Virus record (IMG/VR): IMGVR_UViG_3300049021_000095
Coordinates: 3,103 to 67,102 of that record
Reading direction: 5' to 3' (one strand)
DNA length: 64,000 nt
Source: a virus
Taxonomy: Duplodnaviria > Caudoviricetes
Both the position numbers and the translations under genes were made by a program. Every line of letters starts with the position of its first letter. Within the stretch, counting starts at the first letter, position 1. This document shows, piece by piece, positions 5,947-41,796 of this stretch. The notes under the pieces were generated by a model. The model was given only the letters and a program-made list of their open reading frames with translations, searched no databases and was not told where the DNA came from.

Positions 5947-5955
5947 GAATGTCGA

Positions 5956-6017: not shown

Positions 6018-6022
6018 GTATG

Positions 6023-6217: not shown

Positions 6218-6224
6218 TTGTTAC

Positions 6225-6361: not shown

Positions 6362-6362
6362 T

Positions 6363-17770: not shown

Positions 17771-17852
17771 TGGTAGTCTAGCGACTCCAACGCAGTGACC
17801 TCGCGCAGTGCTACCTGCCGAGGTCGTGGCCCAAAGGAATGAGGTTCCAGTG
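17771..17852 (+). promoter_or_regulatory. HNH leader motif copy 1 (extended -10 plus two hairpins)
   Basis: TGGTAGTCT; AGT-GACCTCG-C-GCAG-TGCTAC-CTGC-CGAGGTC; GGAA/TTCC hairpin before the GTG. Confidence 0.8.
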
Positions 17853-18404
17853 GACGAAAAGACGATCGCACGATTCTGGAGTAGGGTCGACAAAACTGGC
17901 CCCGTGCTGCGACAGGAGCTTGGCCCATGCTGGACGTGGACAAGATGTGTCGATTCGTACGGTTACGGACGTTTCTGGAGTGGTCCCCGATGGACTCGCT
18001 CGCGCATAAAGGCCCATCGTCTCGCGTTCTTCTTGGCGTACGGGCGATGGCCGATGCCGTGCTGTCTTCATCACTGCGACAACCCCAAGTGCGTGAGGGC
18101 CTCACATCTGTTTGAAGGCACGCGCACGGAGAATGCTGCCGACCGTGACCGTAAATGTCGACAAAACAGGGGCGAGCTCAACGGCCACGCGAAGCTGCGT
18201 GAGACGGACGTGGTTGCTATCCGCGTGGCTTTAGCAGCAGGCAGTAGCCAGAGAGATCTCGTTCGACGCTACGGCGTTTCGCCGGCAACAATCAGTCGCG
18301 TTGCAAATGGTGGCGGCTGGAATCACGTCAAAGTGGGCGAGTCAGGATTAGCTGTGGGCCCGGACAAACCTTGCCGGCCGAGCACAATGGCGCGTAGGGC
18401 TTGA
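17850..18404 (+). CDS. free-standing HNH homing endonuclease 1 (HNH_3 plus C-terminal HTH)
   Basis: RFWSRVDK, GPCWTWT..D.YGYG, AHR, LHHCDNPKCVRASHLFEGT; antisense to the late operon. Confidence 0.92.
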   Translation: MDEKTIARFWSRVDKTGPVLRQELGPCWTWTRCVDSYGYGRFWSGPRWTRSRIKAHRLAFFLAYGRWPMPCCLHHCDNPKCVRASHLFEGTRTENAADRDRKCRQNRGELNGHAKLRETDVVAIRVALAAGSSQRDLVRRYGVSPATISRVANGGGWNHVKVGESGLAVGPDKPCRPSTMARRA

Positions 18405-19302
18405 GATCCTCTGGATCTGGATCGCCTTCGCGTTTAGGAATCTCCACACCCTGCAGCCGCATCAGCTCGCGCAAGTTGGAGCGCAGTTGTCGGAACTCAC
18501 GCTCGCTTGTAGCGGCGTCCTTGATCTTGGTCTCGGCCTTCGCCTCGACGGCGTCGGCGCGCGCGTTCGCTTGGGCGGCCTGGGCGGTGGACCGCTCGAT
18601 CTTGGTGGTCAGCGCCTGGATGTAGGCGGTGAGCGGCACGCCGAGCAGAGCCAACAGGGCCGCCAGCCCGAGCAGCAGCTTGGTCAGTGCACTCCGGAGT
18701 GCCTTGGTCGACCCTTCGCCGGCGCCGCTCTCCGGCGCCTTGCTGGGCCGCTCCTGGGCGACGATGACGGGCGACTGGTAGGGGCCGGGGCCCTGAGACT
18801 CCAGTTGCACACGGTGCCGGCGCTCGGCCTCCTGGGCGCGGGCCTCGGCCGCCGCGATCTTGGCCTCCGCGGCTTCCGCGCGCCGCCGCAACGCCTCCCG
18901 GACGGTCTCGTCGGGGTCGCCGCTAACCGGTGGCAAGGAGCCCCCTGGCCGCCCTGCTGCCGCGCCCGGCGCCGGCAAGGTGTCCACGGGCGGCGGCGGG
19001 TCGGTTCGCCTGGCCAAGGCCACGGCAGAGGGCGGCGTGGGCAGGCGCCAGGTCTTCTTGAGCGGCGGATCTGCCGGCGCTGGCAGCGTCGGCGCATATT
19101 CGCCGCTCGGTCGCTGGGCGCCGATGCCTACCAGCGTGCTCTTTCGCGGCACCGGCTGGACGGCCCCATCTACGCCTGGATGGTTGACGGCCCCTCGTTC
19201 CGGCTGGTCCGGCGTGAGAATGCTCGGCAACTCAGGCCGGCTAGGCTGGCGCGGCCGCGCTCCACCGCCGGGCGGCTTTTCCGGCAGGGGCGGAGGTGGC
19301 AT
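18328..19302 (-). CDS. Pro-rich, single-TM coiled-coil protein (possible inner-membrane spanin)
   Basis: disordered Pro-rich N-terminus, TM segment LLLGLAALLALLGVPL, coiled coil, C-terminal C-x5-C; lies in the lysis region. Confidence 0.7.
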   Translation of the reverse strand: MPPPPLPEKPPGGGARPRQPSRPELPSILTPDQPERGAVNHPGVDGAVQPVPRKSTLVGIGAQRPSGEYAPTLPAPADPPLKKTWRLPTPPSAVALARRTDPPPPVDTLPAPGAAAGRPGGSLPPVSGDPDETVREALRRRAEAAEAKIAAAEARAQEAERRHRVQLESQGPGPYQSPVIVAQERPSKAPESGAGEGSTKALRSALTKLLLGLAALLALLGVPLTAYIQALTTKIERSTAQAAQANARADAVEAKAETKIKDAATSEREFRQLRSNLRELMRLQGVEIPKREGDPDPEDLKPYAPLCSAGKVCPGPQLILTRPL

Positions 19303-19311
19303 GGTGCGTGG

Positions 19312-20256
19312 CTAGCTGGTCGCGTCGGCCTGCGCAGCGGCGGCAAGCACGTCGTTGATGGCGATCAGCAGGTCCGAAAACTCGAACGGCTTGAGTAGAG
19401 TGCGCAAGCCCGTGGCCTCGGCCCGACGGGTGCCGACCTCGGACAGGTGCCCGGTCATCAGCAGGCAGCGCGTGCGCGGCATGCCTTGGCTCTCCAGCCA
19501 GGTCACGACGTCGAAGCCGTCGTCGTCACCGAGCTTGATGTCGACGATCGCTAGGTCGGGGGCGCGGCCAGAGGCGGCTACCACCGCTTGAGTCTCCTCG
19601 AGCGAACCAGCGACCAACGTGTTGGCCCCGTGCTCGCGTGCCATCCTGACGATGATCCGCTGCAGGTGCTCGCTGTCCTCGGCGACGAGCATGGTCTTGC
19701 CGTCGAGCAGGCGGCGCTCGGGGGCCGAGTACCCCTGCAAGAGCATGAGCGTGGTGAGTGCGCTGTTGAGGTTGCTCAGCTCGTTGACGATCCGCGAGAG
19801 CTCCCGGTCCTGTTCGTCGTTCCGGGCCTCGACGGTCAGGAGCTTTTCAGCCACGCGCGAGACCCGAGTCGATAGGTCCCGAATGGGCTTCCCTGCAAGG
19901 GTGTCGATCGCGGCCGACAGCTCGGCGACGATCTCCGCCCGCATGCGGTTCGAGCGGGCGTCATGCAGGAGCGCGAGTCGACCGTCTGGGTCGAGCAAGT
20001 CGTGCTCGCGCTCTTGCGCGGCCTGGTACATGCGCAGGAGCTGGTCGATGCTGGCTTCGCGGATCGGCTCGCTGAGCTGCGGGACCTTGCCGGCCCTTGG
20101 GATGATGGGCCCTGGGCTGGCGTTCGGATTGGTAGCGTCCTCGGCAATCGGAGGCGGGGCCACGTCCGTTGGCGTATCGCGGCGGTCGGTTTCGTCCATG
20201 GGTATCAGCTGAAGACGTGGGCGGGTGTGAGTGGCGGTGAGAACTTGCGCGAGCAT
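19312..20256 (-). CDS. response-regulator receiver domain protein with N-terminal coiled coil
   Basis: LVAEDS acid pocket, AIVDIKL phospho-acceptor Asp, LLMTG, LKPF; GGAGG ribosome-binding site. Confidence 0.88.
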   Translation of the reverse strand: MLAQVLTATHTRPRLQLIPMDETDRRDTPTDVAPPPIAEDATNPNASPGPIIPRAGKVPQLSEPIREASIDQLLRMYQAAQEREHDLLDPDGRLALLHDARSNRMRAEIVAELSAAIDTLAGKPIRDLSTRVSRVAEKLLTVEARNDEQDRELSRIVNELSNLNSALTTLMLLQGYSAPERRLLDGKTMLVAEDSEHLQRIIVRMAREHGANTLVAGSLEETQAVVAASGRAPDLAIVDIKLGDDDGFDVVTWLESQGMPRTRCLLMTGHLSEVGTRRAEATGLRTLLKPFEFSDLLIAINDVLAAAAQADATS

Positions 20257-20269
20257 GGACGGGCCTCCG

Positions 20270-21055
20270 TCATGCGGCTGGTGCGGGATCTGTGCCGGGC
20301 TTCGGCTGGGCTAACAGGGCGCGCCAGGAGCGCTCACCGCAGATCCCGTCAGCAACGAGCTTGCTGCTTTGCTGAAAGATCCTGAGTGCATCGAAGCTGC
20401 GTTGACCGAACTGCCCGTCGACCTTCAGCGGTGGAAACGCGCCGTGCTTGTTCAGGGCCTGCTGCATTAGCTCCACAGCGGGACCAGTTGCGCCGCGCTT
20501 CAATGTCGCGTGCACGTTGACCGCAGAGGCTGCGAGGTCGGCAGGCAGCGCCTCATGTAGGGCAATCGCCTGCTGCCGGATCGAGCGCTCCACGGCAACG
20601 TGATGATTGCGGATCCGATCCTCGATGGTCTTGCCGTGGCCTTCGTAGTAGCCGCTCGCATGGAGGCCGCGAGAGAACCCAAGCGTGTCGCCCTTGCCGG
20701 CCGGAATCAGCGCGAGCTTGTCGCGGCCGCGGTTGAGGTACACGACCTTGACGAGATCGATCGCTCCCTCGATTGGCGTCGCGTACTTGCGGAACTTGGT
20801 GACGTACGGCTTGCTCGAGCCGTCGGGCTGCGGAGACGTATCCGTGTAGAGGAATGTTGGCCCGTTCCACCCGGAACCAGCCTGAATTGCGCCGTAGTTG
20901 TTGGAGCCGGCACCGGCAGGCTTCCAGCCGTCGCCGTACGATGACTCGAGCCAAGCCACAGCTTGGAGGCATTGGAGCTCGGGCGTTGAGGCGTCCCGGC
21001 CGAACACGCGCGCGAAGGCATCGCGGAGCAGGAGGCGCATTTCGGCGTGCTTCAT
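20270..21055 (-). CDS. endolysin (glucosaminidase/lysozyme-like domain plus peptidoglycan-binding domain)
   Basis: AVAWLESSYG, NNYGAI, FRKYATP..GA.D, GYY; C-terminal TLKRGATGPAV..MQ..L...VDG.FG. Confidence 0.88.
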   Translation of the reverse strand: MKHAEMRLLLRDAFARVFGRDASTPELQCLQAVAWLESSYGDGWKPAGAGSNNYGAIQAGSGWNGPTFLYTDTSPQPDGSSKPYVTKFRKYATPIEGAIDLVKVVYLNRGRDKLALIPAGKGDTLGFSRGLHASGYYEGHGKTIEDRIRNHHVAVERSIRQQAIALHEALPADLAASAVNVHATLKRGATGPAVELMQQALNKHGAFPPLKVDGQFGQRSFDALRIFQQSSKLVADGICGERSWRALLAQPKPGTDPAPAA

Positions 21056-21144
21056 CGTTTCCCCACGAACGCCCACGCGGCCAGGCTTCCCAGCACCTGC
21101 ACGAGCGCGATACCGGTGCGGATCTTGTCGAGCGTCCAGCGCAT
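21052..21144 (-). CDS. 30 aa hydrophobic peptide
   Basis: MRWTLDKIRTGIALVQVLGSLAAWAFVGKR; start and stop both overlap neighbouring genes. Confidence 0.45.
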   Translation of the reverse strand: MRWTLDKIRTGIALVQVLGSLAAWAFVGKR

Positions 21145-21335
21145 CAGCCGCGGCTCTTCGCGCCAGCCTCGTAGGCCGCGTCGATGGTCTTCTTGGCCGC
21201 AATGGTCTCAGCGGTGACGCGGGCCTCGCGCTCGGCTGCCTCGGCGTCGCCGTTCAGGAGATGCCCCACGAGCCGACCCAGAGAGTCGAAGGCTTCGGCA
21301 GGGACCTTGCTCAAGAGCATGAGTAGCTGGCTCAT
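21144..21335 (-). CDS. small lysis-region protein
   Basis: coupled to neighbours; amphipathic. Confidence 0.5.
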   Translation of the reverse strand: MSQLLMLLSKVPAEAFDSLGRLVGHLLNGDAEAAEREARVTAETIAAKKTIDAAYEAGAKSRG

Positions 21336-21562
21336 CGGCATTGCTCCTTTCGGTCGTCGAGCTTTTGGTTGCAGGCGATCATGGGCGCGCACTGATCCTT
21401 GGGGACACCGGCGGCGCCGCAGCTGTAGGCCTCGACGCTGCACTCGGCGGTGAGCTTGGCGAGCGTAGCGGCGTCGCAGGGCGCTTTGGCTGGAGGGGCG
21501 TTCCCGGGGCAGGCGGCGAGCGCGAGCAGCGCCAGCAGCGCCAAAAGCCCGAGCGCCCTCAC
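21332..21562 (-). CDS. small lipoprotein (possible outer-membrane spanin)
   Basis: signal MRALGLLALLALLALAA-C; Cys-rich mature part. Confidence 0.7.
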   Translation of the reverse strand: MRALGLLALLALLALAACPGNAPPAKAPCDAATLAKLTAECSVEAYSCGAAGVPKDQCAPMIACNQKLDDRKEQCR

Positions 21563-22035
21563 GACACACCTGCCGGCTTTGGCGCCGTTTCCAGGACGCC
21601 CTTGACCTTGGCGCCGATCACGGCTCGGGCCTTCGCCACCTCCGCTTCGAGCTTGGCTCGGAGCAGCGCCTCGAGCTCAGCTTCGTCCTTGAAGCCCAGG
21701 ATCTTCAGAGCGCTAGACTTTCCGTTGGCGCCCAGGTTTTGCTTGAGCTTATTGAGCGCCTGCGCCTGCAGTAGGTCGACGTCTGAACGGTCGAGCTTGC
21801 CATCGGCAGAAAGCTCCCGAAGCTTGGCCACCACCGTCTGCTCGAGCTCGAGCACGACGTCGCTGGCCTGCTCGGATAGACGCAGCAGCATCCCGCGGGC
21901 CTGCTCGCTCTTCACCTTCGAGCGGATGACGGCCAGCAGCCAGCTGGCAGCGAGGCCCAGCAGCGACAAGACGGCGGGGAGGATGATGGCCAGCGCTTGC
22001 TGGAGCGGGGAATCGGGGGCGGTTGCTTCTTGCAT
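21559..22035 (-). CDS. holin-like protein with N-terminal TM helix
   Basis: ALAIILPAVLSLLGLAASWLLAV followed by a charged helical domain; at the head of the lysis cassette. Confidence 0.6.
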   Translation of the reverse strand: MQEATAPDSPLQQALAIILPAVLSLLGLAASWLLAVIRSKVKSEQARGMLLRLSEQASDVVLELEQTVVAKLRELSADGKLDRSDVDLLQAQALNKLKQNLGANGKSSALKILGFKDEAELEALLRAKLEAEVAKARAVIGAKVKGVLETAPKPAGVS

Positions 22036-22107
22036 GAGGCTTCTTTCGGAAAAGTCACCGCGCGCGCAGGCCTCGGCTGGGAGATCCTGGCGAGCGCGGC
22101 GGTGAGG

Positions 22108-22512
22108 TCAGTGGGCGGCGATAAGGACGTAGCCGGACAGATCCCAGGTGCGTCCGCCAACGGTGGTCACCCGCACGCGACTCGTGTACGTGACCCCTTC
22201 AGTCCCGCTCCGCCAGCGCGCGGACACGATACCGTTCTCATGCGCGAACAAGTCGAGCGTCAGAGCGGCATCCGAGCTGTTCTCTAATTCCACGCTATCG
22301 ATCTCGTCGATGGTGTCACCCACGAGCGCGAGCGTCTTAGAGAAGTCAAAGTTGATAAAATCTACCTCGTTCGGGTCCTTCGGAGCGAACGTCCGCGGCG
22401 TCCCCCCGTAGCCATGCACGACCGTGCGACCAACGGGCGCGCGCACGAACACTGCCTCAGGCTCGGGAGTCGGCGTGGCCTCCTCGAAGGCATCGAATAG
22501 CAGAAGGCCCAT
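22108..22512 (-). CDS. virion fibre/adaptor protein
   Basis: KDPNEVDFINFDFS motif and beta-rich C-terminus. Confidence 0.65.
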   Translation of the reverse strand: MGLLLFDAFEEATPTPEPEAVFVRAPVGRTVVHGYGGTPRTFAPKDPNEVDFINFDFSKTLALVGDTIDEIDSVELENSSDAALTLDLFAHENGIVSARWRSGTEGVTYTSRVRVTTVGGRTWDLSGYVLIAAH

Positions 22513-22520
22513 GGCGATCC

Positions 22521-23036
22521 TCAGTCGTCGAGCAGAGCGAACTCGTCGTCAGCGCTGGGCGCCGCCGTGAAGCCGTCGGTGAAGCTCAGCGCTTTCGTGG
22601 TGCCGTTGTAGCCCGTGCACTTTCGCACCTGACCAGCGAGCACACCGCTTTGAAAGCGCACCAGCTTCCCCTTGTGGGCGTCGTTGATCGCCGACGTGAG
22701 CGTCGTGACGAATGACGTCGCGGTTTGCCCAGTCCCGGCGACAGCGAATGTTGCCTGCGGGTCCATCACGCCCGAGGTGACCTGGGGCCGCATGTTGGTC
22801 TTGGTGATCAGCACGGTCAGCCAACTGCACCTGGTTTCCGCAGCCGTGAGGGTGAGCGTGTAGATGCCCGTGCTCCCGAGCTCCGTTGGCGCGTTCGTGG
22901 CGGCCGCAAAGGCGCCTCCGTCTTTGCTGATCTGGACGTCGCTAGCCAGCAGCGAGAGACCGCTACGTAGCGCCCCCGTGCTGACGGTTGAGTCGTACGC
23001 CGGGAAAGTGATGGCTTGCTGTTGTGCTCGTCTCAT
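22521..23036 (-). CDS. virion structural protein
   Basis: DVQISKDGGAFAAATNAPTE.G.TGIY.LTLTAAET motif; Thr/Ala/Gly-rich. Confidence 0.7.
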   Translation of the reverse strand: MRRAQQQAITFPAYDSTVSTGALRSGLSLLASDVQISKDGGAFAAATNAPTELGSTGIYTLTLTAAETRCSWLTVLITKTNMRPQVTSGVMDPQATFAVAGTGQTATSFVTTLTSAINDAHKGKLVRFQSGVLAGQVRKCTGYNGTTKALSFTDGFTAAPSADDEFALLDD

Positions 23037-23194
23037 GGGTCGTTCCTTAGCCACGCCCAAAGCGCAGCGAGCCAACTCCGGCGCCAGGAGTGCCAAAGCC
23101 AGCGGTGCAGATCCCGTAGTTCGCGGCCCGTCAGCGGAGTCGCCTCCGGATCCCGCACCCACAAAGCGTCGATCGTGATGTCTGCAAACTTCAT
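23033..23194 (-). CDS. 53 aa ORF paralogous to an internal segment of the upstream tail protein
   Basis: IDALWVRDPEATPLTGRELRDLH versus IFAIWVRDPAAAPLTEAEGIELH; ATGA overlaps on both sides. Confidence 0.5.
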   Translation of the reverse strand: MKFADITIDALWVRDPEATPLTGRELRDLHRWLWHSWRRSWLAALWAWLRNDP

Positions 23195-25092: not shown

Positions 25093-25150
25093 GTTGCTTT
25101 CTCCACACGACAAGGTGAGCAAGTAGAGGCAGAGGGCCCGTCGACGCATT

Positions 25151-25948: not shown

Positions 25949-25950
25949 CG

Positions 25951-27255: not shown

Positions 27256-27256
27256 G

Positions 27257-28081: not shown

Positions 28082-28094
28082 GGGTTTTGCCGAA

Positions 28095-29414: not shown

Positions 29415-29417
29415 GGA

Positions 29418-31228: not shown

Positions 31229-31231
31229 GCG

Positions 31232-31621
31232 TTAGGCGGCTTCGAGATCCAGCAGGGCCAGCTTGGCCTGCTCGATCAGTAGGGTTCGCGTAAAGGGGCC
31301 GGCGGCGTCGACAATGAGAAGCGTCAAGCGGATGGCGCGGCCGCCCTGTTCGTAGATGGCGGTCGCCTGCACGTCTTCGACCTGCTCGTCCTTCAGGCAC
31401 TCGGCCTCCGCAGCGGCCGCGATCGTCTCGGGGCGCGCCTTGCTGTTGAGGAATTGCGCCATGTCGGTGCCAAAATTCTGCCACCAGGGAAATCTCCCGC
31501 GCGGGGTCTGCAGTCGCACACAGAGCCTGTGGATCAGAGCCGTGCGCCCAAACACGGTGCGCATCTCGGGCGTGAAATCGCCCAGGCTCCAAAGGCCAAT
31601 GGTGTCGTCGATACCGGCCAT
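31232..31621 (-). CDS. gp25/GPW-like baseplate protein
   Basis: RLQTPRG.F.W..NFG.D, ECLKDEQVED; immediately before baseplate J in operon order. Confidence 0.75.
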   Translation of the reverse strand: MAGIDDTIGLWSLGDFTPEMRTVFGRTALIHRLCVRLQTPRGRFPWWQNFGTDMAQFLNSKARPETIAAAAEAECLKDEQVEDVQATAIYEQGGRAIRLTLLIVDAAGPFTRTLLIEQAKLALLDLEAA

Positions 31622-31623
31622 GG

Positions 31624-31708
31624 TGCTAAACTCAACCCCTGAAACACAGTGACCCGGCGTCGCGCTAACGACCCGGGTCTCGGCTCACCAGGAATGGGGT
31701 TCCCGATG
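31624..31708 (+). promoter_or_regulatory. HNH leader motif copy 2
   Basis: TGCTAAACT; AGT-GACCCGG-C-GTCG-CGCTAA-CGAC-CCGGGTC; GGAA/TTCC hairpin before the ATG. Confidence 0.8.
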
Positions 31709-32257
31709 AACACTAAGACCGTAGCTTGCGCCACGTGCGGTGCCCAATGCCTAAGTTCGGGGCGCTGGAAGTTCTGTTCCCTTGCATGCCGTTTTGCGAG
31801 TCACGTTGACCAGAACGGCGCGATCCCTGCGCATAGGCCTGAATTGGGGAGGTGCGCGGTTTGGACCGGCGCTCGCGACACGAAGGGCTACGGCCAGATC
31901 AACCTCGCTAATCGCGAAAGGCGAGGAACGCACCGCGTAGCCTTCTTCCTGGCACACGGCAGGTGGCCAGAACCGATGGCTCTTCACAAGTGCGACAACC
32001 CCGCATGCGTCCGAGTTGATCACCTGTTTGAAGGGGACGATCTTGACAACGTTCGGGACATGCTCCGCAAAGGTCGCAATGGGCAACCGCACGGCGAGGA
32101 CGCTGGCATGGCTCGGTTGACAGAGGCGCTCGTCACCGAGATACGGTCTGCCGTCGCAAAGGGCGAACCACAGCGCGCCGTGGCCCGACGAATGCAAATC
32201 CCAAGAACAACCGTTGGTTGCGTGGTTAGGCGCCAGACCTGGAAGCACATGGCCTGA
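31706..32257 (+). CDS. free-standing HNH homing endonuclease 2 (N-terminal Zn finger, C-terminal HTH)
   Basis: CATC...KFCSLAC, WTGARD.KGYG, LHKCDNPACVRVDHLFEG. Confidence 0.92.
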   Translation: MNTKTVACATCGAQCLSSGRWKFCSLACRFASHVDQNGAIPAHRPELGRCAVWTGARDTKGYGQINLANRERRGTHRVAFFLAHGRWPEPMALHKCDNPACVRVDHLFEGDDLDNVRDMLRKGRNGQPHGEDAGMARLTEALVTEIRSAVAKGEPQRAVARRMQIPRTTVGCVVRRQTWKHMA

Positions 32258-32282
32258 AAATCGGCCTAGGTTTGGCTCAAGG

Positions 32283-32311
32283 TTGCGCGCGACCGGCCGT
32301 CTGGTTAGCCT
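32283..32311 (+). promoter_or_regulatory. sigma70-type promoter for the lipoprotein pair
   Basis: TTGCGC-17 nt-TAGCCT, 8 nt before the ATG at 32320. Confidence 0.55.
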
Positions 32312-32319
32312 GAGGATTC

Positions 32320-33798: not shown

Positions 33799-33801
33799 TG
33801 C

Positions 33802-35490: not shown

Positions 35491-36107
35491 CAGCCACCGC
35501 CAAGAATCCGCATCTCGGTCTCTTGCGCGTCAGTCGTCGGATAGCCGGCGTTGCCCTGCAGGGCCTTGGCGAGCTTGTTAGGGTCGCCGAAGTAGTCGGG
35601 CTTGGTGTACTTCGGAATGATCGGATTCTCGGGCGTCGACTTCTTGGTCGGCCCCTTCGAGTCCTTCTCTTCCTCGAACCACTCGGCCACGCGGATCGTG
35701 ATGACCATGCCCTTGCGCGCGCTCGGCGCTTCGGTCTTGATCTTGTGGATGTAGATGCTGTTGACGCCGTACGTGTTGGGCAGCGGGTGAACGATAGCCA
35801 GCGGCGTGCGGACGGCGCCCTCGCGGCGGGGCTGGATGTGCGGCAGCTTTTTTTGCCACTCGATCCATTGAGACGCGCGCAGCTCGACCTTGATGGTGAA
35901 GGCGCACGGTGCCAGCCCGTTGTCGCGAATTCGGGGCTTCTCCTTCTTGCGGCGCTTTTGGACGTCGATGTCCTGCCCGTACTCGAAGTCTTCGATCGTG
36001 ATGACGCCCGGCAGGTAGATCTCGCCTAGCTGGCAGATGTCCCAGCTCGAGCCCGCGTACTGCCCGTCGATGAACGTCTCGGCGCCGACCCAGGATTCGG
36101 TGGGCAT
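35490..36107 (-). CDS. tail tube initiator-like protein
   Basis: between tape measure and hub; start taken at MPTESW (TGATG overlap). Confidence 0.65.
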   Translation of the reverse strand: MPTESWVGAETFIDGQYAGSSWDICQLGEIYLPGVITIEDFEYGQDIDVQKRRKKEKPRIRDNGLAPCAFTIKVELRASQWIEWQKKLPHIQPRREGAVRTPLAIVHPLPNTYGVNSIYIHKIKTEAPSARKGMVITIRVAEWFEEEKDSKGPTKKSTPENPIIPKYTKPDYFGDPNKLAKALQGNAGYPTTDAQETEMRILGGG

Positions 36108-37978
36108 CAGGACTCCTCGAGCTCCTTTTTGACCGTAGAGCGCACCTTGCTCATCAAGGCGGCCTCGTCGATCCCGGTGCCGACCTGCCAACCGTTCATG
36201 TTGATCGTCTTGCTCGGCCCGTTGGGCGACTGCTGCTCACCCTCGACCGTCACGCTCTCCTGGCCGACGCCGGCGAGCATGGCCGGGAGCCGTGCGCTCG
36301 CCGAAGACTCGGCGGCAGTTGTGATCGCTGCATTGGCGTTAGACGCGGTGCCCGCTGACTGAATCACGCCAGAAAGCAAGGCGCCGCCGGGTAGCGCGCT
36401 GACCGCTGCGGCCGCCACTCCCTGCACGCCCGCCGCCCCGACTCGACCAAGGGTCCTTTGGAGCCGCTGCACAGCTTCGTCGACCCAAACAATCGCGGCA
36501 TAGACCGCGTACGCGGCAAGACCCACGGCGCCGATCAACAAGTACAGCGGCAGCATCAGCGTGAACCCAGCGACCGCCACAACGCCGAGCGTCAGGCCCA
36601 GGAGTGTCATCACGCCAGCCAGCGCCTTGCCTTGCACGGTGCTGGTATCGAACATCGTGACTGCAAGACGGATTGAGTCCGTCATGAGACCGAGGCCCGT
36701 GCTGAATACTTTCGTTATCGTCGGCCAATTCGCCTCCGTCCACAGGACGAAATACTCGAATTGGTTCAGCAGGAAGCTCCCAAAGCGGGCGATCTTCGGG
36801 TCATTCGCCAGCTTATCGACGAATGACGTCCCCAGCTTCATCAGCCGCTGCAGGCCCGGAAGGATTGCGTCGCCGATGTCGACGAAAGCATTCTGAATTC
36901 GCGCCTTGAAGACGCCGGCCATGCCGGTGAGGGTGCTGGACGCAAAGGCCTTGCCGGCGTCTCCAGTGGTCTTGGAGCCCGTCTTCTTACGAACCGCTTC
37001 GAGGATCGACTCGATGACGTCATTGCTGCCCAGCTGACGCTTCTCCTGCATGGAGATGATCTGCTGGGTCGTCTTGCCGAGTCGCTTGCCGAGAGCTTCG
37101 TAAACGAGCTCGGTCGAAACGCCGGCCTCGCGGAGCTGGTTCAGCTCGTCGCCCTGCAGGTAGCCGGTGTTCTTGATCTGGCTGATGGCGACGATCGCTC
37201 GCTTCGTGTGCTCGGCTGAAGCGCCGATCGCCTGAAGGTCCGCGGACATGCGGAGCAGCTCCTTGGCCTTCCCGATGTCGAATTGCGCCGCGAGGAGCTT
37301 CTGAAATCCGGCTTGCGTGTCGTGGACGTCAAGACCGAGCTGTTGGGCTTCCCGGCGGACGTTGTCGAACTCGGCGGATGCAACCGACGCGCTGCCGGTG
37401 AGCAGGGTGAGCGCCAGCCGCGAGCGCTCGCCGAATGCCGCGGCCTCGACCGATGCCTTGCCGAACTGGTAGGCGAGGTAGCCGACCGCGGCGGCGGCGG
37501 CGAGCGCCCCTGCCGCGATTGCGGCCGCGCCCATGCCGAGGCCGCCCGAAGCGAAGTCGACGAGCCCGCCCTGCTTGTCGAGCTTCTGCTGGGCCATGCC
37601 GAGCTTGAAGTCGGCGACGCGCTTGGCCTCTTTCTTCTGCGTATCGGCGAGCTTCTTGGCATCCTTGCTGGCGTTCGCCAGTTGCAGCTTTGCGACCTTG
37701 GCCGCCTCTCGCTGCTGCCTGGTGGCGTCGGCAGCATTGAGGCGACCGATCCGCGCTAGCTGTGCCACCTGGTCGCGGGCCTGCGAGCGGCGCGCCGCCG
37801 CCGTCATCTTGGACCAGTCGGAAACTCCGCCGCGGCGCGGCGCCGGCGCCTCGAGCGCGCTCTTGGTGCTGAGCGCGGACTTCTTGAGGTCGTCGAGGTC
37901 GCGCTTCGCTTTGCGCGATGGGCCGCTGATGTCGTTGATGAGTGAGGCTTTGAAGCTCACTCCGCCGTCAGCAGCCAC
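36107..37978 (-). CDS. tape measure protein
   Basis: 623 aa Ala-rich helical protein; tape-measure motif AISQIKNTGYLQGDELNQLREAG. Confidence 0.9.
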   Translation of the reverse strand: MAADGGVSFKASLINDISGPSRKAKRDLDDLKKSALSTKSALEAPAPRRGGVSDWSKMTAAARRSQARDQVAQLARIGRLNAADATRQQREAAKVAKLQLANASKDAKKLADTQKKEAKRVADFKLGMAQQKLDKQGGLVDFASGGLGMGAAAIAAGALAAAAAVGYLAYQFGKASVEAAAFGERSRLALTLLTGSASVASAEFDNVRREAQQLGLDVHDTQAGFQKLLAAQFDIGKAKELLRMSADLQAIGASAEHTKRAIVAISQIKNTGYLQGDELNQLREAGVSTELVYEALGKRLGKTTQQIISMQEKRQLGSNDVIESILEAVRKKTGSKTTGDAGKAFASSTLTGMAGVFKARIQNAFVDIGDAILPGLQRLMKLGTSFVDKLANDPKIARFGSFLLNQFEYFVLWTEANWPTITKVFSTGLGLMTDSIRLAVTMFDTSTVQGKALAGVMTLLGLTLGVVAVAGFTLMLPLYLLIGAVGLAAYAVYAAIVWVDEAVQRLQRTLGRVGAAGVQGVAAAAVSALPGGALLSGVIQSAGTASNANAAITTAAESSASARLPAMLAGVGQESVTVEGEQQSPNGPSKTINMNGWQVGTGIDEAALMSKVRSTVKKELEES

Positions 37979-37986
37979 GGTTCACC

Positions 37987-38229
37987 TCACCGACGCCGCG
38001 GGCGCCTACCGCGCTGCTTTTGCAGCTTTGCCCAGGCCTCCGCGAACTGGACGAAGTTTTGCTGGAAGTTGAGAGCAACGGCGCGCGCTTCGGCGACGAG
38101 CAGAGCCCCAAGCAGGGCGTTCTCGGATGGCTCGATAGGTTCATCGTCTTCGCGCTCGCCGACCTGAAATGCGAAAAGCGCGCGAGCGGCCATCAAGTGG
38201 TCGCTGCGCGCGCGTTTCAGTCTTTTCCC
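37987..38229 (-). CDS. -1 frameshift extension of the tail assembly chaperone
   Basis: open frame entered at the slippery site GGGAAAA and continuing RLKRARSDHLMAARAL. Confidence 0.65.
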   Translation of the reverse strand, partial: GKRLKRARSDHLMAARALFAFQVGEREDDEPIEPSENALLGALLVAEARAVALNFQQNFVQFAEAWAKLQKQRGRRPRRR

Positions 38230-38600
38230 AACACGTCCGCATCAGCGCCAGATAGCAGCTGCGCGAGATTTGCTACCTTCGTGGGAAGGCCGGGTTTCTT
38301 GTCGAAGTACTGCTTGAGTGTCTCGCGATCGGGGTAGACGGCTGATGCCAGCGCCAGGTTCTCACCGGCGATGTTCCTGCTCACCTTTTCGTTATTGATC
38401 GCGTCCTGAAAAACCCTGAAGTCCTTCTTGGCCGGCGTCGCAACCACGATGATCCCGCAGCCGCGCTGAAATACGACTTCGATCTCGCCGTGCTTTTCGC
38501 GCAGCTTCTCGATCAGGTCTTTGCTGCACTCGAAGGCCTCTGCGGCCGTCTGCTCACTCAAAGGACGCGCTTCCGCGTCCGCGGTTTCGTTCTCGCTCAC
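38217..38600 (-). CDS. tail assembly chaperone
   Basis: between tail tube and tape measure; ends at the slippery site. Confidence 0.75.
   Translation of the reverse strand: MSENETADAEARPLSEQTAAEAFECSKDLIEKLREKHGEIEVVFQRGCGIIVVATPAKKDFRVFQDAINNEKVSRNIAGENLALASAVYPDRETLKQYFDKKPGLPTKVANLAQLLSGADADVLGKD
38223..38229 (-). promoter_or_regulatory. -1 programmed frameshift heptamer G GGA AAA
   Basis: X XXY YYZ one codon before the chaperone stop; canonical position upstream of the tape measure gene. Confidence 0.75.
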
Positions 38601-38664
38601 GTGCTTCTCCCATTACGTTGCGAGACGCCCGGAATTGGGCGCCTATGTCTGCGGCGCGTGGCCG

Positions 38665-39159
38665 CTAGAGCGTGTTGCCGTAAACGTCCACTCCGTCGTA
38701 GTAGATGTTCCCGACGCGCAGCGGCATGCTGACCATGTTGGGGTCGGATCCGCGCGAACCAGAGTTACCGATCTCGTTCAGCTTCACGCCCTTGAGCGTG
38801 TCGACGTGCAGCACCTTGTCGCCCGTGGCGGGGTCGGTGCCGTAGTACGAGAAGGCGATGGTAAGTGTGAGGTCGAAGAGCCCGACGCCGGCTTCACGCG
38901 CCTGCTCGACGAGCCAGTCGAACCAGAAGCGCAGTACCGTGATCGAGCCCTCGAACTCGGCGTCGCCTTCGGTCGGCTCCGACATCGGAAGGCGGCCTGA
39001 GCCGTACATCTCGGTGCGGTTGGCCTTGGCCGTGTAGTCGAACTCATCGAGCCCGCTGACAAGGCCGAGGCTGACGTTGTTCTGGTTGCCGTTGAGGACG
39101 ACCTCGGTTTCGATCGACGCGAAGTCAGTCGGTACCTGGCGAACAAGTGCGGTTGCCAT
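38665..39159 (-). CDS. tail tube protein
   Basis: follows the sheath gene (TAATG overlap); MYGSGR.P...T.G..EFEGSITV. Confidence 0.75.
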   Translation of the reverse strand: MATALVRQVPTDFASIETEVVLNGNQNNVSLGLVSGLDEFDYTAKANRTEMYGSGRLPMSEPTEGDAEFEGSITVLRFWFDWLVEQAREAGVGLFDLTLTIAFSYYGTDPATGDKVLHVDTLKGVKLNEIGNSGSRGSDPNMVSMPLRVGNIYYDGVDVYGNTL

Positions 39160-40622
39160 TAGGCCGCTACCCCGATGCTGCTGGTGAGGCCGATCTCAGT
39201 AGCGATCGACTCGATCGGCGGGAGAGGAACGGCGCGACACACGCTCTTGAGCTGTCGCGTGGTGAGGATGTTGTTGTTGAGGTCGACGACGTACTCGAGC
39301 GCCGAGACGTGCCCGGGTTGCCCTTCGGCGTTGATGGGGGAGAGGATCTCGTCCCTCAGCGCACTGCGAACCATGGTCTCGATTCGGGCGGCGTCGCGCG
39401 GGTCGATGCGGCCCGTTCCGTCCGGAAGGACGCGCACTTTCTTGAGCAGCCACTGCTGCTGCGCCGAGTAGATGACCCGGCAGATCCGGTCGATGACGCG
39501 GCCCCAGTCCCAGTAAAGGAAGTCGGAGCCGGCCGCGCTCTTCAGGTAGCCGTTCGTCGCGTAGATACCGGCTTCGCCGTCGTAGGTGCGGAGCGTGTTG
39601 ATCTTGTGGGACTCGATAAACGCCTGGCTCGAGCCCTCGTCAGCTGTGATCTTGAGCACCCGGAGCGAGCCGGAAGCGACGCGCCCGAGGTTCTCCGACA
39701 GGTCGGCGCCGGCGGCGCGTTCAGAGAGCACGTGCGCGGCAGAGACGCGGGGCACGCCCCAGCCCGCTCGTGGATTCAGCGTCGGGACGTCGGCCTGCCC
39801 AAAGCAGACAGCTACGCGATTGTTCGCGAACGGAACGACCGAGGTGATGACGTTGGCGCTCGTGTCGTTGCCGCAGTCCATCATGGCGCGCGCCCAGCGC
39901 TTCCGCGCCTCGAGGCTCGACATGAGGGTCGCGACGGTCGCCGCCATGGTCGCCGCGGCAGCTGCCGAAGCGCTGCGCCCGGTGAAGTAGGTCTCTTCGA
40001 CGACGTACTGACCGAGCGCCGCCAGCATCGCGGTCCACGCCGTGGAGAGATCCGCGGTCGTGTACTGGGGCGCCGTGCAAGCGGCGACGTGGTAGTCGCC
40101 GGCTTCGAAGATGATGGGGCCGCCGCCGGGGACGAAGGTCGCCGTGATGTTGGTGCCCGGGATGGCGTACGTGCCGCCGCTCGGGATCGTTAGCTCTTCG
40201 CTGTAGGTGGGCGAGTCAGCGAGCTGGTCGAGCGAGTAGTCGAAACGGCCCACGCCGAGCGCGCCCGTCAGCTTGATGCGGATGCGGAGCTGGTAGGCGT
40301 CGTAGGCAGCTCCCGCGAGCGTGATCGTGCCGGTGCTCGTGGACACCGCCGTCTTCGTCACGGCGCCGGCCGCGCCGGCCGTGCTGGCTGGCGTCTTGAG
40401 CACGAGCACGCCGCCGCGCTCCGTGATCATCGGCAACGCGAGCTCGACCGCTGGCCCTTGGCCGAGCGTGTCTTTGAGGCTGTTTTGGTTGGTCGAGAAG
40501 TACAGCGTCGAAGTCGTGCCGCTCGAGGTGACGCCGATCACGACCGGAAAGATCGTGCCGAGTCCGGAGAGACCGATGCCGCCGTCGCGGACGACGAGCG
40601 TTTGGCCAGCAGGATACACCAT
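39159..40622 (-). CDS. contractile tail sheath protein (DUF2586-like)
   Basis: 487 aa; C-terminal TLRTYDG..GIY.TNG...GSDF.....RVIDR sheath motif. Confidence 0.85.
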   Translation of the reverse strand: MVYPAGQTLVVRDGGIGLSGLGTIFPVVIGVTSSGTTSTLYFSTNQNSLKDTLGQGPAVELALPMITERGGVLVLKTPASTAGAAGAVTKTAVSTSTGTITLAGAAYDAYQLRIRIKLTGALGVGRFDYSLDQLADSPTYSEELTIPSGGTYAIPGTNITATFVPGGGPIIFEAGDYHVAACTAPQYTTADLSTAWTAMLAALGQYVVEETYFTGRSASAAAAATMAATVATLMSSLEARKRWARAMMDCGNDTSANVITSVVPFANNRVAVCFGQADVPTLNPRAGWGVPRVSAAHVLSERAAGADLSENLGRVASGSLRVLKITADEGSSQAFIESHKINTLRTYDGEAGIYATNGYLKSAAGSDFLYWDWGRVIDRICRVIYSAQQQWLLKKVRVLPDGTGRIDPRDAARIETMVRSALRDEILSPINAEGQPGHVSALEYVVDLNNNILTTRQLKSVCRAVPLPPIESIATEIGLTSSIGVAA

Positions 40623-40625
40623 GGC

Positions 40626-41123
40626 TTACAGCCCCTTGCCCTTGTGAGGCGACAGAGCCGGCGCGTGCGGCTCGTAATCGGTGATGGTCGGGATGCCCTT
40701 GTTGGCCATCTCGAGTGAATCGACGGGCTCGCCGGTGGGCTTGCCGTCCTTGTCGATGACGCGCGTCACCGGTTCCGACGCGGCTTTGAGCGCGGACTTG
40801 TAGTCGTCTGCGCTCAGCTTGATCGGCTCACCGGCGTGGTGCGCGTGTTCGCGCCAGCCATGCAGGGCTTCGGCGCCAGCGTGGAACTGGTGATAGAGCT
40901 CGAAGCTGGCGGGCTGGTTGCCAATGACGGCAGTGCGCGTGACCGTCTTCACGCCGCCGAGCGCTTTGGCGTGTTCTTCGGGCGATGCGAGGTCTTTCGG
41001 CGCCTCGACCGCCTTGGTTGACGGCTCCGGGTCGACGTGGCCCGCTACCGGGCCCACCCGTTCGGGCTTGTCTGCGGGCGCAGTGGTGCCGCCCTCCGCC
41101 ACTTTGGGGAAGTCTTTCGACAT
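40626..41123 (-). CDS. hypothetical virion-region protein
   Basis: 165 aa; operon packing. Confidence 0.6.
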   Translation of the reverse strand: MSKDFPKVAEGGTTAPADKPERVGPVAGHVDPEPSTKAVEAPKDLASPEEHAKALGGVKTVTRTAVIGNQPASFELYHQFHAGAEALHGWREHAHHAGEPIKLSADDYKSALKAASEPVTRVIDKDGKPTGEPVDSLEMANKGIPTITDYEPHAPALSPHKGKGL

Positions 41124-41141
41124 GATCTGTTTTGCTTCTCG

Positions 41142-41714
41142 CTAGGGTGCTGGCGGACCGGTCACGATGACCGTTTCAAATGCTTCGAAGTTGCCGTCTT
41201 CGTCTGCGACGCCGTTGTCTTCGGTGACCGTCGACTGGTGGGTCTCGATGGTGGCGAGTGTGAGAGGGACGGAGCCCTCAGAAGGAATGGGGACGTTCAG
41301 AATGACATCGAGGACGTAGAGCTCGCCGTGCTGCATGTGGCGGCCCTCCACTTCCGTGGGAACCGTGTAGCTCTGCAACCCCAGGGACCTCCCGTAAGGC
41401 GTCCTCTTGATTGCCGCGATGATGTCGACAAGGAGATTCCAGCCCTCTTCGAGGGAACTGGTCCACATCCACACTAGGAATCGCGCTAGGGCTGCGTCTT
41501 TGGCGGGGCTCTCTTCAGTTCCCGCCAACAACGGAGAACCAAAATTCCCTCCCTGGTGAAGCCATACGACTTTTCCAGGGCCAGCATTCTTTGCGACTTC
41601 CAGATTTCCGAAAGCCGGCAGGCCGTTTTCATCCCGCGGTATCGGTGTCCTGCCACCTGGTAACGCTTCGTAAGCGTCGTAGATGTCAGAGACGATCTGT
41701 TGCAGCACAAACAT
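41142..41714 (-). CDS. tail terminator/completion-like protein
   Basis: position between the neck gene and the sheath; N-terminal codons atypically A/T-ending. Confidence 0.6.
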   Translation of the reverse strand: MFVLQQIVSDIYDAYEALPGGRTPIPRDENGLPAFGNLEVAKNAGPGKVVWLHQGGNFGSPLLAGTEESPAKDAALARFLVWMWTSSLEEGWNLLVDIIAAIKRTPYGRSLGLQSYTVPTEVEGRHMQHGELYVLDVILNVPIPSEGSVPLTLATIETHQSTVTEDNGVADEDGNFEAFETVIVTGPPAP

Positions 41715-41796
41715 GCTAAGTTTCGTGCTCCAACAGAGTGACCCGGCGCAGCGCTAACTGCCCGGGTCTTGACCCACAGGAAGGTTGATTCCCATG
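41714..41796 (+). promoter_or_regulatory. HNH leader motif copy 3
   Basis: TGCTAAGTT; AGT-GACCCGG-C-GCAG-CGCTAA-CTGC-CCGGGTC; GGAA/TTCC hairpin before the ATG. Confidence 0.8.

What the first reader, a model, noticed from the sequence alone, without database searches (positions are those of the whole stretch)
17771..41796. One conserved promoter and covarying 5' RNA motif heads all three antisense HNH genes
Seen at 17771-17852, 31624-31708 and 41714-41796: TGnTAnnnT, 14-15 nt, AGT, a 7-bp stem starting GACC, a bulged C, a 4-bp stem, a YGCTAM hexaloop, then GRCYC and a GGAA/TTCC hairpin covering the Shine-Dalgarno just before the start. Four base pairs differ between copies, all with compensatory changes. 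The proteins themselves are well diverged. Inference: a portable expression module for a family of mobile HNH genes, for example an RNA element bound by a phage or host factor, or by the C-terminal HTH, that times nuclease expression. It could also be a partner RNA of the nuclease. I cannot assign it to a named family from memory.
Basis: partly seen in the sequence, partly recalled or inferred. Interest (0 to 1): 0.75.

Follow-up and report, generated by a model that had tools for sequence, protein, structure and literature searches.

The report
Antisense-RNA control cassette heading HNH genes
Each of the three backward-facing HNH nuclease genes in this phage starts with the same portable control cassette, found in many mobile elements, and the sequence statistics suggest its conserved hairpins mainly belong to a ~65-70-base RNA read from the opposite strand across the ribosome-binding site, probably holding the gene down.

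Summary
The motif occurs exactly three times in the window, with none expected by chance, and four of its stem pairs differ through compensatory changes.

It is not private to this phage. The same hairpin (P1: 7 bp, bulged C, 4-6 bp) heads many mobile-element genes:
- HNH genes of several Pfam families
- ArdC-like, transposase, integrase and Rep genes
- hosts and phages from Actinomycetota, Planctomycetota, Myxococcota and Chloroflexota MAGs, plus Propionibacterium phages and a cyanophage

No Rfam family matches.

- An opposite-strand TANNNT -10 box sits just inside the ORF in 33 of 41, against 6 of 253 control ORFs.
- The opposite strand folds better (z -3.5 against -2.0; 37 of 41).
- Non-Watson-Crick pairs in P1 are mostly A.C on the sense strand, which are G.U on the antisense strand (10 against 2).

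Best reading: two facing promoters produce an mRNA leader and a ~65-nt cis-antisense RNA. That RNA has an anti-SD hairpin and P1' as its 3' hairpin, in the manner of IS10 RNA-IN/RNA-OUT. No RNA data exist. Copy 1 has a weakened antisense box.

Earlier notes of this scan reached the same reading on other phages. I found no published description.

The parts
17771..17779 (+). Copy 1: extended -10-like box TGGTAGTCT of the sense (HNH) promoter
   Evidence: Read directly. Same register in all three copies. No -35, so the simple sigma-70 scan does not list it.
17797..17825 (.). Copy 1: hairpin P1 (GACCTCG, bulged C, GCAG, loop TGCTAC, CTGC, CGAGGTC). On the - strand it is P1', the 3' hairpin of the predicted antisense RNA.
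   Evidence: Pattern and covariance-model hits. Folds on both strands.
17836..17848 (.). Copy 1: hairpin P2 (GGAA TGAGG TTCC) holding the SD. Its complement forms the anti-SD hairpin of the antisense RNA.
17850..18404 (+). HNH gene 1 (184 aa, HNH_3 plus weak HTH_38), GTG start
17862..17867 (-). Copy 1: antisense -10-like hexamer GATCGT (ANNNT kept, first T lost), a weakened box
   Evidence: Same register as copies 2 and 3 (+13 to +18 of the ORF); read. ANNNT is the core mycobacterial -10 (PMC6448022).
17787..17855 (-). Copy 1: predicted cis-antisense RNA (~69 nt; ends inferred)
   Evidence: Folds as two hairpins, -30.7 kcal/mol, z -3.4.
31624..31632 (+). Copy 2: extended -10-like box TGCTAAACT. 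It lies 2 nt from the start codon (31619-31621) of the divergent baseplate gene 31232-31621.
31651..31679 (.). Copy 2: hairpin P1 / P1' (GACCCGG, C, GTCG, CGCTAA, CGAC, CCGGGTC)
31691..31703 (.). Copy 2: hairpin P2 (GGAA TGGGG TTCC) with the SD. On the - strand it extends to a 12-bp stem.
31706..32257 (+). HNH gene 2 (183 aa; N-terminal CxxC..C..C zinc ribbon, HNH_3, weak HTH_38)
31718..31723 (-). Copy 2: antisense -10 box TACGGT. It is made by the codons ACC GTA; GTA is a codon I expect to be rare at this G+C content (not measured here).
   Evidence: Read. Family-wide position test.
31640..31711 (-). Copy 2: predicted cis-antisense RNA (~72 nt; ends inferred)
   Evidence: -37.7 kcal/mol, z -4.5. 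The sense leader gives -27.7, z -2.1.
41714..41722 (+). Copy 3: extended -10-like box TGCTAAGTT. It overlaps the start codon (41712-41714) of the divergent gene 41142-41714.
41740..41768 (.). Copy 3: hairpin P1 / P1' (GACCCGG, C, GCAG, CGCTAA, CTGC, CCGGGTC)
41779..41792 (.). Copy 3: hairpin P2 (GGAA GGTTGA TTCC) with the SD
41794..42396 (+). HNH gene 3 (200 aa; zinc ribbon plus HNH_3). Its stop abuts the stop of the - strand gene 42397-42951.
41806..41811 (-). Copy 3: antisense -10 box TATGAT, made by the codons ATC ATA
   Evidence: Read. Family test.
41730..41799 (-). Copy 3: predicted cis-antisense RNA (~70 nt; ends inferred)
   Evidence: -34.7 kcal/mol, z -4.0.

Best explanation
Each HNH gene carries a ~110-bp portable control cassette with two promoters facing each other.

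The upstream extended -10 promoter makes the mRNA. Its leader is hairpin P1, a short linker (GUGRCC), then hairpin P2 presenting the Shine-Dalgarno sequence.

A second -10 box (TANNNT) lies on the opposite strand within the first 4-6 codons. It makes a ~65-70-nt antisense RNA that starts at or just inside the start codon. That RNA folds into an anti-SD hairpin (P2') and the conserved bulged hairpin (P1'), which is followed by a moderately U-rich tail, and it ends near the mRNA's own start.

The antisense RNA is fully complementary to the mRNA leader. It would therefore pair with the leader, block ribosome binding and/or trigger duplex cleavage. Convergent transcription may add interference. 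The result would be a low nuclease level and, since P1 and P2 are nearly identical in the three copies, possibly a level that senses copy number.

Shown here: the motif, its covariation, its spread, the position-specific antisense -10 box, and the better fold of the antisense strand.

Inferred: that both promoters fire, where the RNAs end, and that the effect is repression.
For: - The motif is real and covaries. On 19 copies, 98% of cells pair, 5 of 11 pairs carry double changes, and slid controls give 24-48% paired.
- In 41 non-redundant copies, an opposite-strand TANNNT box starts at +4 to +14 of the ORF in 33 (17 of them exactly at +8). Five equal control windows further into the gene give 0-1 of 41. 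The sense orientation gives 6 of 41. Control ORFs in the same loci give 6 of 253 (Fisher p = 5e-30).
- CGAC at -4 to -1 is conserved in the +8 class (13-16 of 18). This places a G seven nucleotides after the antisense hexamer, the usual start distance (promoter rules from PMC6448022).
- For the stretch from leader to start codon, the antisense strand folds at -32.1 against -27.8 kcal/mol. The z-score is -3.52 against -2.04, lower in 37 of 41 (Wilcoxon 3e-9). P2 alone is more stable on the antisense strand in 33 of 41.
- Non-Watson-Crick pairs inside P1 are A.C on the sense strand, which are G.U on the antisense strand, 10 times, against 2 sense G.U.
- The 8 nt before P1 are 44% A against a 21% background, giving a U-rich tail after P1'.
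- In the window, the predicted antisense RNAs fold as two clean hairpins, z -3.4, -4.5 and -4.0. Copies 2 and 3 build the box from the codons GTA and ATA.
- The downstream proteins are unrelated, so the conserved nucleotides inside the ORF are not explained by protein homology.
Against: - There is no RNA evidence of any kind.
- Copy 1 has GATCGT rather than TANNNT, and its nearest relative (L037) has no box.
- The window copies carry the box at +13, a minority register.
- P1' is not a canonical terminator. The U-tract scan finds nothing at the three sites, so the 3' end of the antisense RNA is uncertain.
- The strict conservation of the GACC..GGUC base of the stem, the bulge and the flanks AGU/GUG is more than an antisense RNA or a terminator needs. 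It hints at an unknown binding partner.
- The sense strand can add two G.U pairs at the base of P1 (AGU/GUG), so the mRNA hairpin probably matters too.
- Part of the data set was collected with patterns that fixed the outer stem.
- Only 5 of 33 antisense boxes carry a TGn extension.
Confidence: 0.62

Rival explanations
1. Sense-only reading. P1 is a cis-regulatory 5' UTR element of the mRNA. It is bound by a host or phage protein, or acts as a 5' stabiliser against RNase E/J, and it tunes translation through the SD hairpin P2. The opposite-strand box would be incidental.
For: - All three window copies have a clear extended -10 box 14-15 nt before AGT.
- P1 sits near the predicted 5' end of the mRNA.
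- The conserved flanks AGU and GUG can add two G.U pairs on the sense strand only.
- The SD lies in or next to the P2 loop in most copies.
- The base of P1, its bulge and its flanks are conserved like a protein site.
Against: - The antisense box is position-specific and more conserved than the sense promoter (33 of 41 against 17 of 41).
- The antisense strand folds better.
- A.C exceptions outnumber G.U on the sense strand 10 to 2.
- Autoregulation by the product is excluded as a general rule by the unrelated downstream proteins.
- This rival and the main reading are not exclusive: the mRNA hairpin may serve as the target hairpin.
Confidence: 0.17
2. Promoter-plus-terminator insulation or shuffling cassette, like the PeSLs of T4-type phages. 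On this reading P1' stops transcription coming through the inserted gene from the other side. The conserved cassette mainly serves as a recombination handle that moves genes between genomes, with no antisense regulation.
For: - The cassette heads unrelated accessory genes in many elements.
- The window cassettes have a lower G+C (0.595-0.61) than their flanks (0.62-0.70) and are inserted tightly between structural genes.
- There is a U-rich bias after P1'.
- PeSLs are promoter plus stem-loop cassettes that terminate transcription and mediate shuffling (PMC2839356).
Against: - It does not explain a conserved promoter box inside the first codons aimed at P1'.
- It does not explain the conserved P2' fold on the antisense strand.
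- P1' lacks a proper U tract in the window. In the window a strong terminator there would cut off the phage's own baseplate and tail genes downstream on the - strand.
- No relatives of the phage without the insertions could be found to show cassette borders.
Confidence: 0.12
3. DNA-level hairpin or cruciform (for example a single-strand priming or recombination signal), or a Ro60-binding helix used by this phage's own Ro60 protein.
For: - G.T and A.C exceptions occur on both strands, as expected for an inverted repeat selected as DNA.
- The window encodes a Ro60 homologue and Y-RNA-like elements, and Ro60 binds helices with a bulged C (my own knowledge).
Against: - The element has a fixed place between a promoter and an SD, with a fixed orientation relative to the ORF.
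- The 10:2 bias in exceptions is not symmetric.
- TROVE is absent from other carriers (G001, G003, G004).
- The Y-RNA stems of this phage (GAGCCGAAGUC...) differ from P1.
Confidence: 0.04

Closest known systems
IS10/Tn10 RNA-IN / RNA-OUT (cis-antisense control of transposase; PMC5006887)
   Same: - Two facing promoters tens of bases apart at the 5' end of a selfish gene.
- A ~69-nt stem-loop antisense RNA, complementary to the translation initiation region, that blocks ribosome binding.
- Repression that grows with copy number.
- One branch of the present family also heads a DDE transposase (L045, L046, L049).
   Different: - There is no sequence or model similarity: Rfam scans at E up to 10 give nothing.
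- Here the antisense RNA has two hairpins and covers the whole leader.
- The cassette is shared by unrelated genes and several phyla.
- The hosts are mostly Hfq-less Actinomycetota (the Hfq point is my own knowledge).
- Nothing here has been shown experimentally.
Translational control of T4-type homing endonuclease genes by RBS-sequestering hairpins (PMC2988022)
   Same: Homing-endonuclease genes carry their own promoter and an RNA hairpin at the ribosome-binding site that limits translation.
   Different: - In T4 the relieving (late) promoter lies inside the hairpin and no antisense RNA is involved.
- Here the sense promoter lies upstream of both hairpins, and P2 only partly covers the SD.
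- Here a reverse promoter sits in the ORF.
Type I toxin-antitoxin pairs with 5' overlap (symE-symR) and reverse promoters of EcoRI/Eco29kI restriction genes (PMC3874152)
   Same: A reverse promoter inside a nuclease or toxin gene makes an antisense RNA under 90 nt that covers the SD of the mRNA. The convergent promoters repress each other.
   Different: - The families and hosts are different.
- Those systems are single loci, not a portable cassette heading many unrelated genes.
- No addiction or antitoxin role is implied here.
PeSL (promoter-early stem-loop) cassettes of T4-type phages (PMC2839356)
   Same: Small, repeated promoter plus stem-loop cassettes that flank accessory genes in phage genomes and appear to move them.
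   Different: - PeSL stem-loops are effective terminators, and no antisense promoter is described in the abstract I read.
- Here the stem-loop lacks a U tract on the sense strand and lies between the promoter and the SD.

Membership tests
Any Rfam 15 family | Match to a curated covariance model | tested here: not met
   The gathering scan of the window finds only a tRNA-like hit at 6226-6360. Permissive scans (E up to 10 or 1) of the three sites and of seven related loci give nothing at the motif on either strand.
Cis-antisense control of the IS10 RNA-IN/RNA-OUT type (working principle, not homology) | A promoter on the opposite strand at the 5' end of the gene, facing the sense promoter | tested here: met
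   At the sequence level only. TANNNT on the opposite strand occurs at +4 to +14 in 33 of 41 copies, against 6 of 253 control ORFs. In the window the boxes are TACGGT, TATGAT and the weakened GATCGT.
Cis-antisense control of the IS10 RNA-IN/RNA-OUT type (working principle, not homology) | A stable, structured antisense RNA covering the SD and start codon | tested here: met
   Predicted RNAs of 58-81 nt (median 65). They fold as two hairpins with z -3.4 to -4.5 in the window, and the antisense z is lower in 37 of 41 copies.
Cis-antisense control of the IS10 RNA-IN/RNA-OUT type (working principle, not homology) | The antisense RNA is detected and represses translation | not testable with these tools
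   No transcript data are available for any carrier.
RNA-OUT family itself (homology) | Sequence and structure similarity to IS10 RNA-OUT | tested here: not met
   No Rfam hit at E up to 10 on either strand. I assume, but did not check, that RNA-OUT is among the 4227 models.
T4-type RBS-sequestering hairpin control of homing endonuclease genes | The hairpin sequesters the SD, and the relieving promoter starts inside the hairpin | tested here: not met
   The SD lies in the loop or 3' arm of a short P2 of 4-7 bp, so it is only partly covered. The mean z of the P2 region on the sense strand is -0.8. The sense -10 box lies upstream of both hairpins.
PeSL cassettes | The stem-loop is a terminator on the promoter's strand, within T4-type hyperplastic regions | tested here: not met
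   No T run follows P1 on the + strand, and the terminator scan finds nothing at the sites. The phage has a Mu-type portal and is not T4-like.
Free-standing HNH homing endonuclease genes (the cargo) | An HNH catalytic domain, inserted between conserved phage genes | tested here: met
   HNH_3 at 1e-9 to 9e-9 in all three. The genes are inserted between baseplate and tail genes, and at the switch between the genome's arms, with lower G+C than the flanks. Homing activity and target sites were not tested. No solved relative was found by sequence.

The most novel reading that the evidence does not exclude
A family of ~65-nt cis-antisense RNAs spans several phyla and has a nearly invariant 3' hairpin (GACCCSG..bulge..CSGGGUC). 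It forms a universal, portable governor that travels with selfish nuclease genes and other mobile-element genes (ArdC, transposase, integrase, Rep). The invariant base of the hairpin, its bulge and its flanks would be the docking site of a conserved host factor, a role like that of Hfq in bacteria that lack Hfq. Near-identical copies in one genome would cross-repress, giving copy-number control of homing endonucleases.
Probability: 0.3. Interest if true: 0.75.

Novelty: new variant of a known kind. Interest (0 to 1): 0.6.

Why it matters
How free-standing homing endonuclease genes keep their nuclease low enough to be tolerated is known in detail only for T4-type phages, where hairpins work with late promoters. 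A portable antisense-RNA cassette would be a second, quite different solution, used mostly in high-G+C bacteria and their phages.

It would also link homing endonucleases, IS transposases, anti-restriction genes and integrative elements through one shared control module.

In practice it gives:
- a covariance model and a sequence signature for annotating start codons (for example the HNH gene of Propionibacterium phage Anatole) and small RNAs in phage genomes
- a compact, possibly host-independent repression module for synthetic biology in Actinomycetota

The strongly conserved base of P1 points to a still unknown binding partner.

Tried and rejected
- **Rfam.** Gathering and permissive scans gave no family.
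- **Mistyped pattern.** Two collection scans were wasted on a pattern with one N too many.
- **Relatives of the window.** Megablast of site 2 against GenBank phages found none.
- **Empty-site relatives.** I looked for relatives of the phage without the insertions, to define cassette borders. The search for related loci with the baseplate protein, and searches of two other carrier phages with the flanking proteins, found nothing.
- **Simple scans.** The sigma-70 and U-tract terminator scans list neither the promoters nor P1'. The promoters are -10-only, and P1' is not a canonical terminator.
- **Ideas rejected.**
  - tRNA or RNase P minihelix mimic: there is no CCA and the loop is not a T-loop.
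  - boxA/boxB nut-like site.
  - ssoA CS-6 loop (TAGCG): the loop is not conserved in the wider family.
  - Pseudoknot between the AGU flank and the GCU loop: sterically impossible across an 11-bp helix.
  - Ro60 binding: TROVE is absent from most carriers.
  - Autoregulation by an N-terminal zinc ribbon: it is absent from copy 1, from ArdC and from others.
- **Sampling limits.** Covariance-model searches of 150 genomes each scored only 39 candidates per genome, so they are lower bounds. They gave 12 of 151 Actinomycetia-class genomes, 4 of 151 Planctomycetota and 0 of 151 Cyanobacteria.
- **Literature.** Four searches for an antisense or structured RNA at HNH or homing endonuclease genes found no description.

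Full report
**1. The observation**

The three sites exist as described. A pattern built from them matches at 17794-17825, 31648-31679 and 41737-41768 on the + strand. Shuffles gave 0 matches, and the 67,102-nt IMG/VR record that holds the window (window = bases 3103-67102) has no further match. A covariance model (R1) run without filters scores the three at 64-72 bits; the next best place in the window scores 11 bits.

Each copy reads as follows:
- TGnTAnnnT, then 14-15 nt, then AGT
- hairpin P1: 7 bp beginning GACC, a bulged C, 4 bp, and a loop YGCTAM
- G[GA]C[CT]C
- a GGAA/TTCC hairpin (P2) around the Shine-Dalgarno sequence
- the start codon

Four stem pairs differ among the copies, all by double changes.

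The genes (17850-18404, 31706-32257, 41794-42396) encode HNH_3 proteins with a weak C-terminal HTH_38, and share 45-47% identity. They lie on the + strand. The neighbouring genes on the low-coordinate side of copies 2 and 3, and on the high-coordinate side of all three copies, lie on the - strand. These include baseplate, tail-completion, tape-measure and Mu-type portal genes.

The cassettes have a lower G+C (0.595-0.61) than the window (0.65) and their flanks. Two further HNH-type genes on the - strand (51558-52205 and 63497-64000) either lack the module or have their upstream region cut off by the end of the record.

**2. The motif is widespread and heads unrelated genes**

Pattern scans of the viral, genome and metagenome collections found many more copies. 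So did covariance-model searches and blastn against GenBank phages.

Named carriers:
- Propionibacterium freudenreichii phages Anatole, E1 and B3. The module lies at 440-505, in front of the HNH gene next to the terminase, here on the same strand as its neighbours.
- Pseudanabaena phage Pan2.
- Pseudoclavibacter helvolus.
- Many Nocardiopsis, plus Streptomyces, Nocardioides and Terrabacter.
- MAGs of Planctomycetota, Gemmatimonadales, Myxococcota, Chloroflexota, Dormibacterota and Acidimicrobiia.

A diverged form sits in a Mu-like enterobacterial prophage (L008, L026).

Of 39 downstream proteins, 10 hit HNH_3 and 5 hit HNH (PF01844). Three hit HNH_5, which was not checked for overlap with the PF01844 hits. 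Two are ArdC-like. Single cases include a DDE transposase, an integrase, a pSAM2-type Rep, an FtsK-gamma protein, RhuM and endonuclease I. Several have no Pfam match.

Two of the transposase and integrase examples (L047, L057) come from a genome flagged as unpublished (G034).

In the wider family the conserved features are the base of P1 (GACCCSG/CSGGGUC), the bulged C, the G-C pair above it, and the flanks A-G-U and G-U-G-R-C-C. The inner stem (4-6 bp) and the loop vary and covary freely. No Rfam family matches on either strand.

**3. Which strand folds**

Several observations did not fit a pure mRNA element. I wrote the antisense idea down, before consulting earlier notes of this scan.

I built a set of 41 copies that are less than 75% similar over promoter, leader and first codons. 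In that set:

- **(a) Antisense promoter box.** The opposite strand carries a TANNNT hexamer starting at +4 to +14 of the ORF in 33 of 41 copies, 17 of them exactly at +8. Five equal control windows deeper in the gene give 0-1 of 41. The sense orientation in the same window gives 6 of 41. Other ORFs with an SD in the same loci give 6 of 253 (Fisher p = 5e-30). TANNNT/ANNNT at -6 to -13 is the main -10 motif of mycobacterial promoters (PMC6448022). The three N vary freely and the encoded residues differ between protein families, so this is a nucleotide constraint, not a protein one.
- **(b) Antisense start.** In the +8 class, CGAC at -4 to -1 is conserved (13-16 of 18). This places a G seven nucleotides after the antisense hexamer.
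- **(c) Sense promoter.** A sense-strand TANNNT 8-22 nt before P1 is seen in only 17 of 41 copies.
- **(d) U-rich tail.** The eight bases before P1 are 44% A against a 21% background. P1' is therefore followed by a U-rich tail.
- **(e) Pair exceptions.** Inside P1, exceptions to Watson-Crick pairing are A.C on the sense strand ten times and G.U twice. On the opposite strand the ten become G.U.
- **(f) Folding.** Folding the stretch from 8 nt before P1 to the start codon gives -27.8 kcal/mol (z -2.04) for the sense strand and -32.1 (z -3.52) for the antisense strand. The antisense z is lower in 37 of 41 copies (Wilcoxon 3e-9). P2 alone is more stable on the antisense strand in 33 of 41.

**4. 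The window copies under this reading**

The opposite-strand hexamers sit in one register, +13 to +18:
- copy 1: GATCGT (17867-17862), which keeps ANNNT but has lost the first T
- copy 2: TACGGT (31723-31718)
- copy 3: TATGAT (41811-41806)

Copies 2 and 3 build the TA from the codons GTA and ATA, which I expect to be rare at 65% G+C (codon usage was not measured). Copy 1 uses ATC.

With a 7-nt gap, the antisense RNAs would start at about 17855, 31711 and 41799. They would run leftwards through the start codon, SD, P2' and P1' to about 17787, 31640 and 41730. They fold as two clean hairpins with z -3.4, -4.5 and -4.0. The sense leaders give z -2.6, -2.1 and -2.3.

In this phage the antisense strand is also the strand of the surrounding structural operon. 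Read-through from the upstream tail genes would therefore add long antisense RNA across each HNH gene.

**5. Mechanism proposed**

Two facing promoters about 70-85 bp apart give an mRNA with the leader P1-P2 and a ~65-nt cis-antisense RNA complementary to that whole leader. Pairing would block the ribosome-binding site and expose the duplex to double-strand RNases. Convergent transcription may add interference. Pairing may begin between the complementary P2/P2' loops, which carry the SD and anti-SD.

This is the logic of IS10 RNA-IN/RNA-OUT (PMC5006887). It is also the logic of symE-symR and of the reverse promoters in the EcoRI and Eco29kI restriction genes (PMC3874152). It differs from the T4 solution for homing endonuclease genes, where an RBS-sequestering hairpin is relieved by a late promoter inside it (PMC2988022).

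P1 and the P2 stems are almost identical in the three window copies, so cross-repression between copies is conceivable.

**6. What does not fit, and rivals**

- No transcript data exist.
- P1' lacks a canonical U tract in the window.
- Copy 1 and its nearest relative (L037) have a weak antisense box or none.
- The near-invariance of the stem base, bulge and flanks exceeds what an antisense RNA or terminator needs.
- The sense strand can add two G.U pairs (AGU/GUG) at the base of P1.

I therefore keep several rivals. One is a sense-strand role, as target hairpin, 5' stabiliser or protein site. Another is a PeSL-like promoter/terminator shuffling cassette (PMC2839356). Low-probability rivals are a DNA-level hairpin and Ro60 binding. 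TROVE is missing from three of four other carriers tested, and the fourth has only a sub-threshold match.

**7. Novelty**

Four literature searches found no description of an antisense or structured RNA at HNH or homing endonuclease genes.

Earlier AI notes of this scan report the same kind of antisense cassette in front of homing endonuclease genes in other uncultured phages. One note describes what looks like this very bulged-C hairpin and reads it as PeSL-like. These notes agree with my reading, but they are not independent evidence.

I rate the finding as a new variant of a known kind: cis-antisense control, here as a portable cassette for homing endonuclease and other mobile-element genes.

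Noticed in passing
window 4312-6430 (+): The phage encodes a Ro60/Rsr homologue (4312-5946; TROVE 5e-53, vWA_Ro60 5e-62). An RNA cluster lies directly after it. Three stems begin GAGCCGAAGUC; the two at about 5955-6017 and 6147-6216 weakly hit the nematode stem-bulge (Y-RNA-like) model, and the third, at about 6370-6430, was identified by eye. They alternate with two tRNA-like elements, one at about 6020-6140 and one at 6226-6360. The latter scores 52 bits on the tRNA model with a 66-nt insert, and ARAGORN does not call it. This looks like a phage-borne Ro60 plus Y-RNA (YrlA-type) module.
   Followed up: partly
window 51558-52205 (-) and 63497-64000 (-): Two more HNH-type genes (PF01844, and HNH_3 at the record's end) lie on the same strand as their neighbours. 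The first has coding sequence, not the module, upstream. The second starts at the last bases of the record.
   Followed up: partly
L050, L056, L059-L063, L132-L134, L139, L142, L146, L158, L161, L162, L179, L194, L195 and others (Nocardiopsis genomes): A multi-copy gene family (~200-aa proline-rich proteins starting VHQFSAAL or VSQFSAAL, with no Pfam match) has at least 7 copies in one genome. Each copy has its own promoter, a P1 hairpin with a conserved A.C mismatch and a hypervariable loop, and the antisense box TAAACT at +8.
   Followed up: partly
L064 (Propionibacterium phage Anatole, NC_041890) 505-1260: The annotated HNH gene gp2 starts at 772. The module (SD hairpin, GTG at 505) and the open frame suggest the gene really starts at 505, which adds the CxxxGC zinc-finger N-terminus.
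   Followed up: partly
L008 1511-1730 and L026 2990-3130 (Mu-like prophages): Two tandem P1-like hairpins are each preceded by ACATAAAG. A further ~100-nt structured stretch follows, in front of a 52-64-aa zinc-ribbon ORF. The whole lies near a com/methyltransferase (mom-like) end of a Mu-like prophage, and the E. coli relative has the loop CGCGAA.
   Followed up: partly
L054 (genome G020), about 38 nt upstream of rpoB: A weak model hit (24 bits) shares the outer stem and flanks of P1 (AUGACCCCGCG...CGGGGUCGUGA). It sits in front of the RNA polymerase beta-subunit gene of one actinobacterial genome. It may be chance or a host copy of the hairpin.
   Followed up: no
window 31619-31632 and 41712-41722; 42394-42399: The cassettes are inserted very tightly. 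The sense -10 box touches or overlaps the start codon of the divergent - strand gene at sites 2 and 3. The stop of HNH gene 3 abuts the stop of the - strand gene 42397-42951.
   Followed up: no
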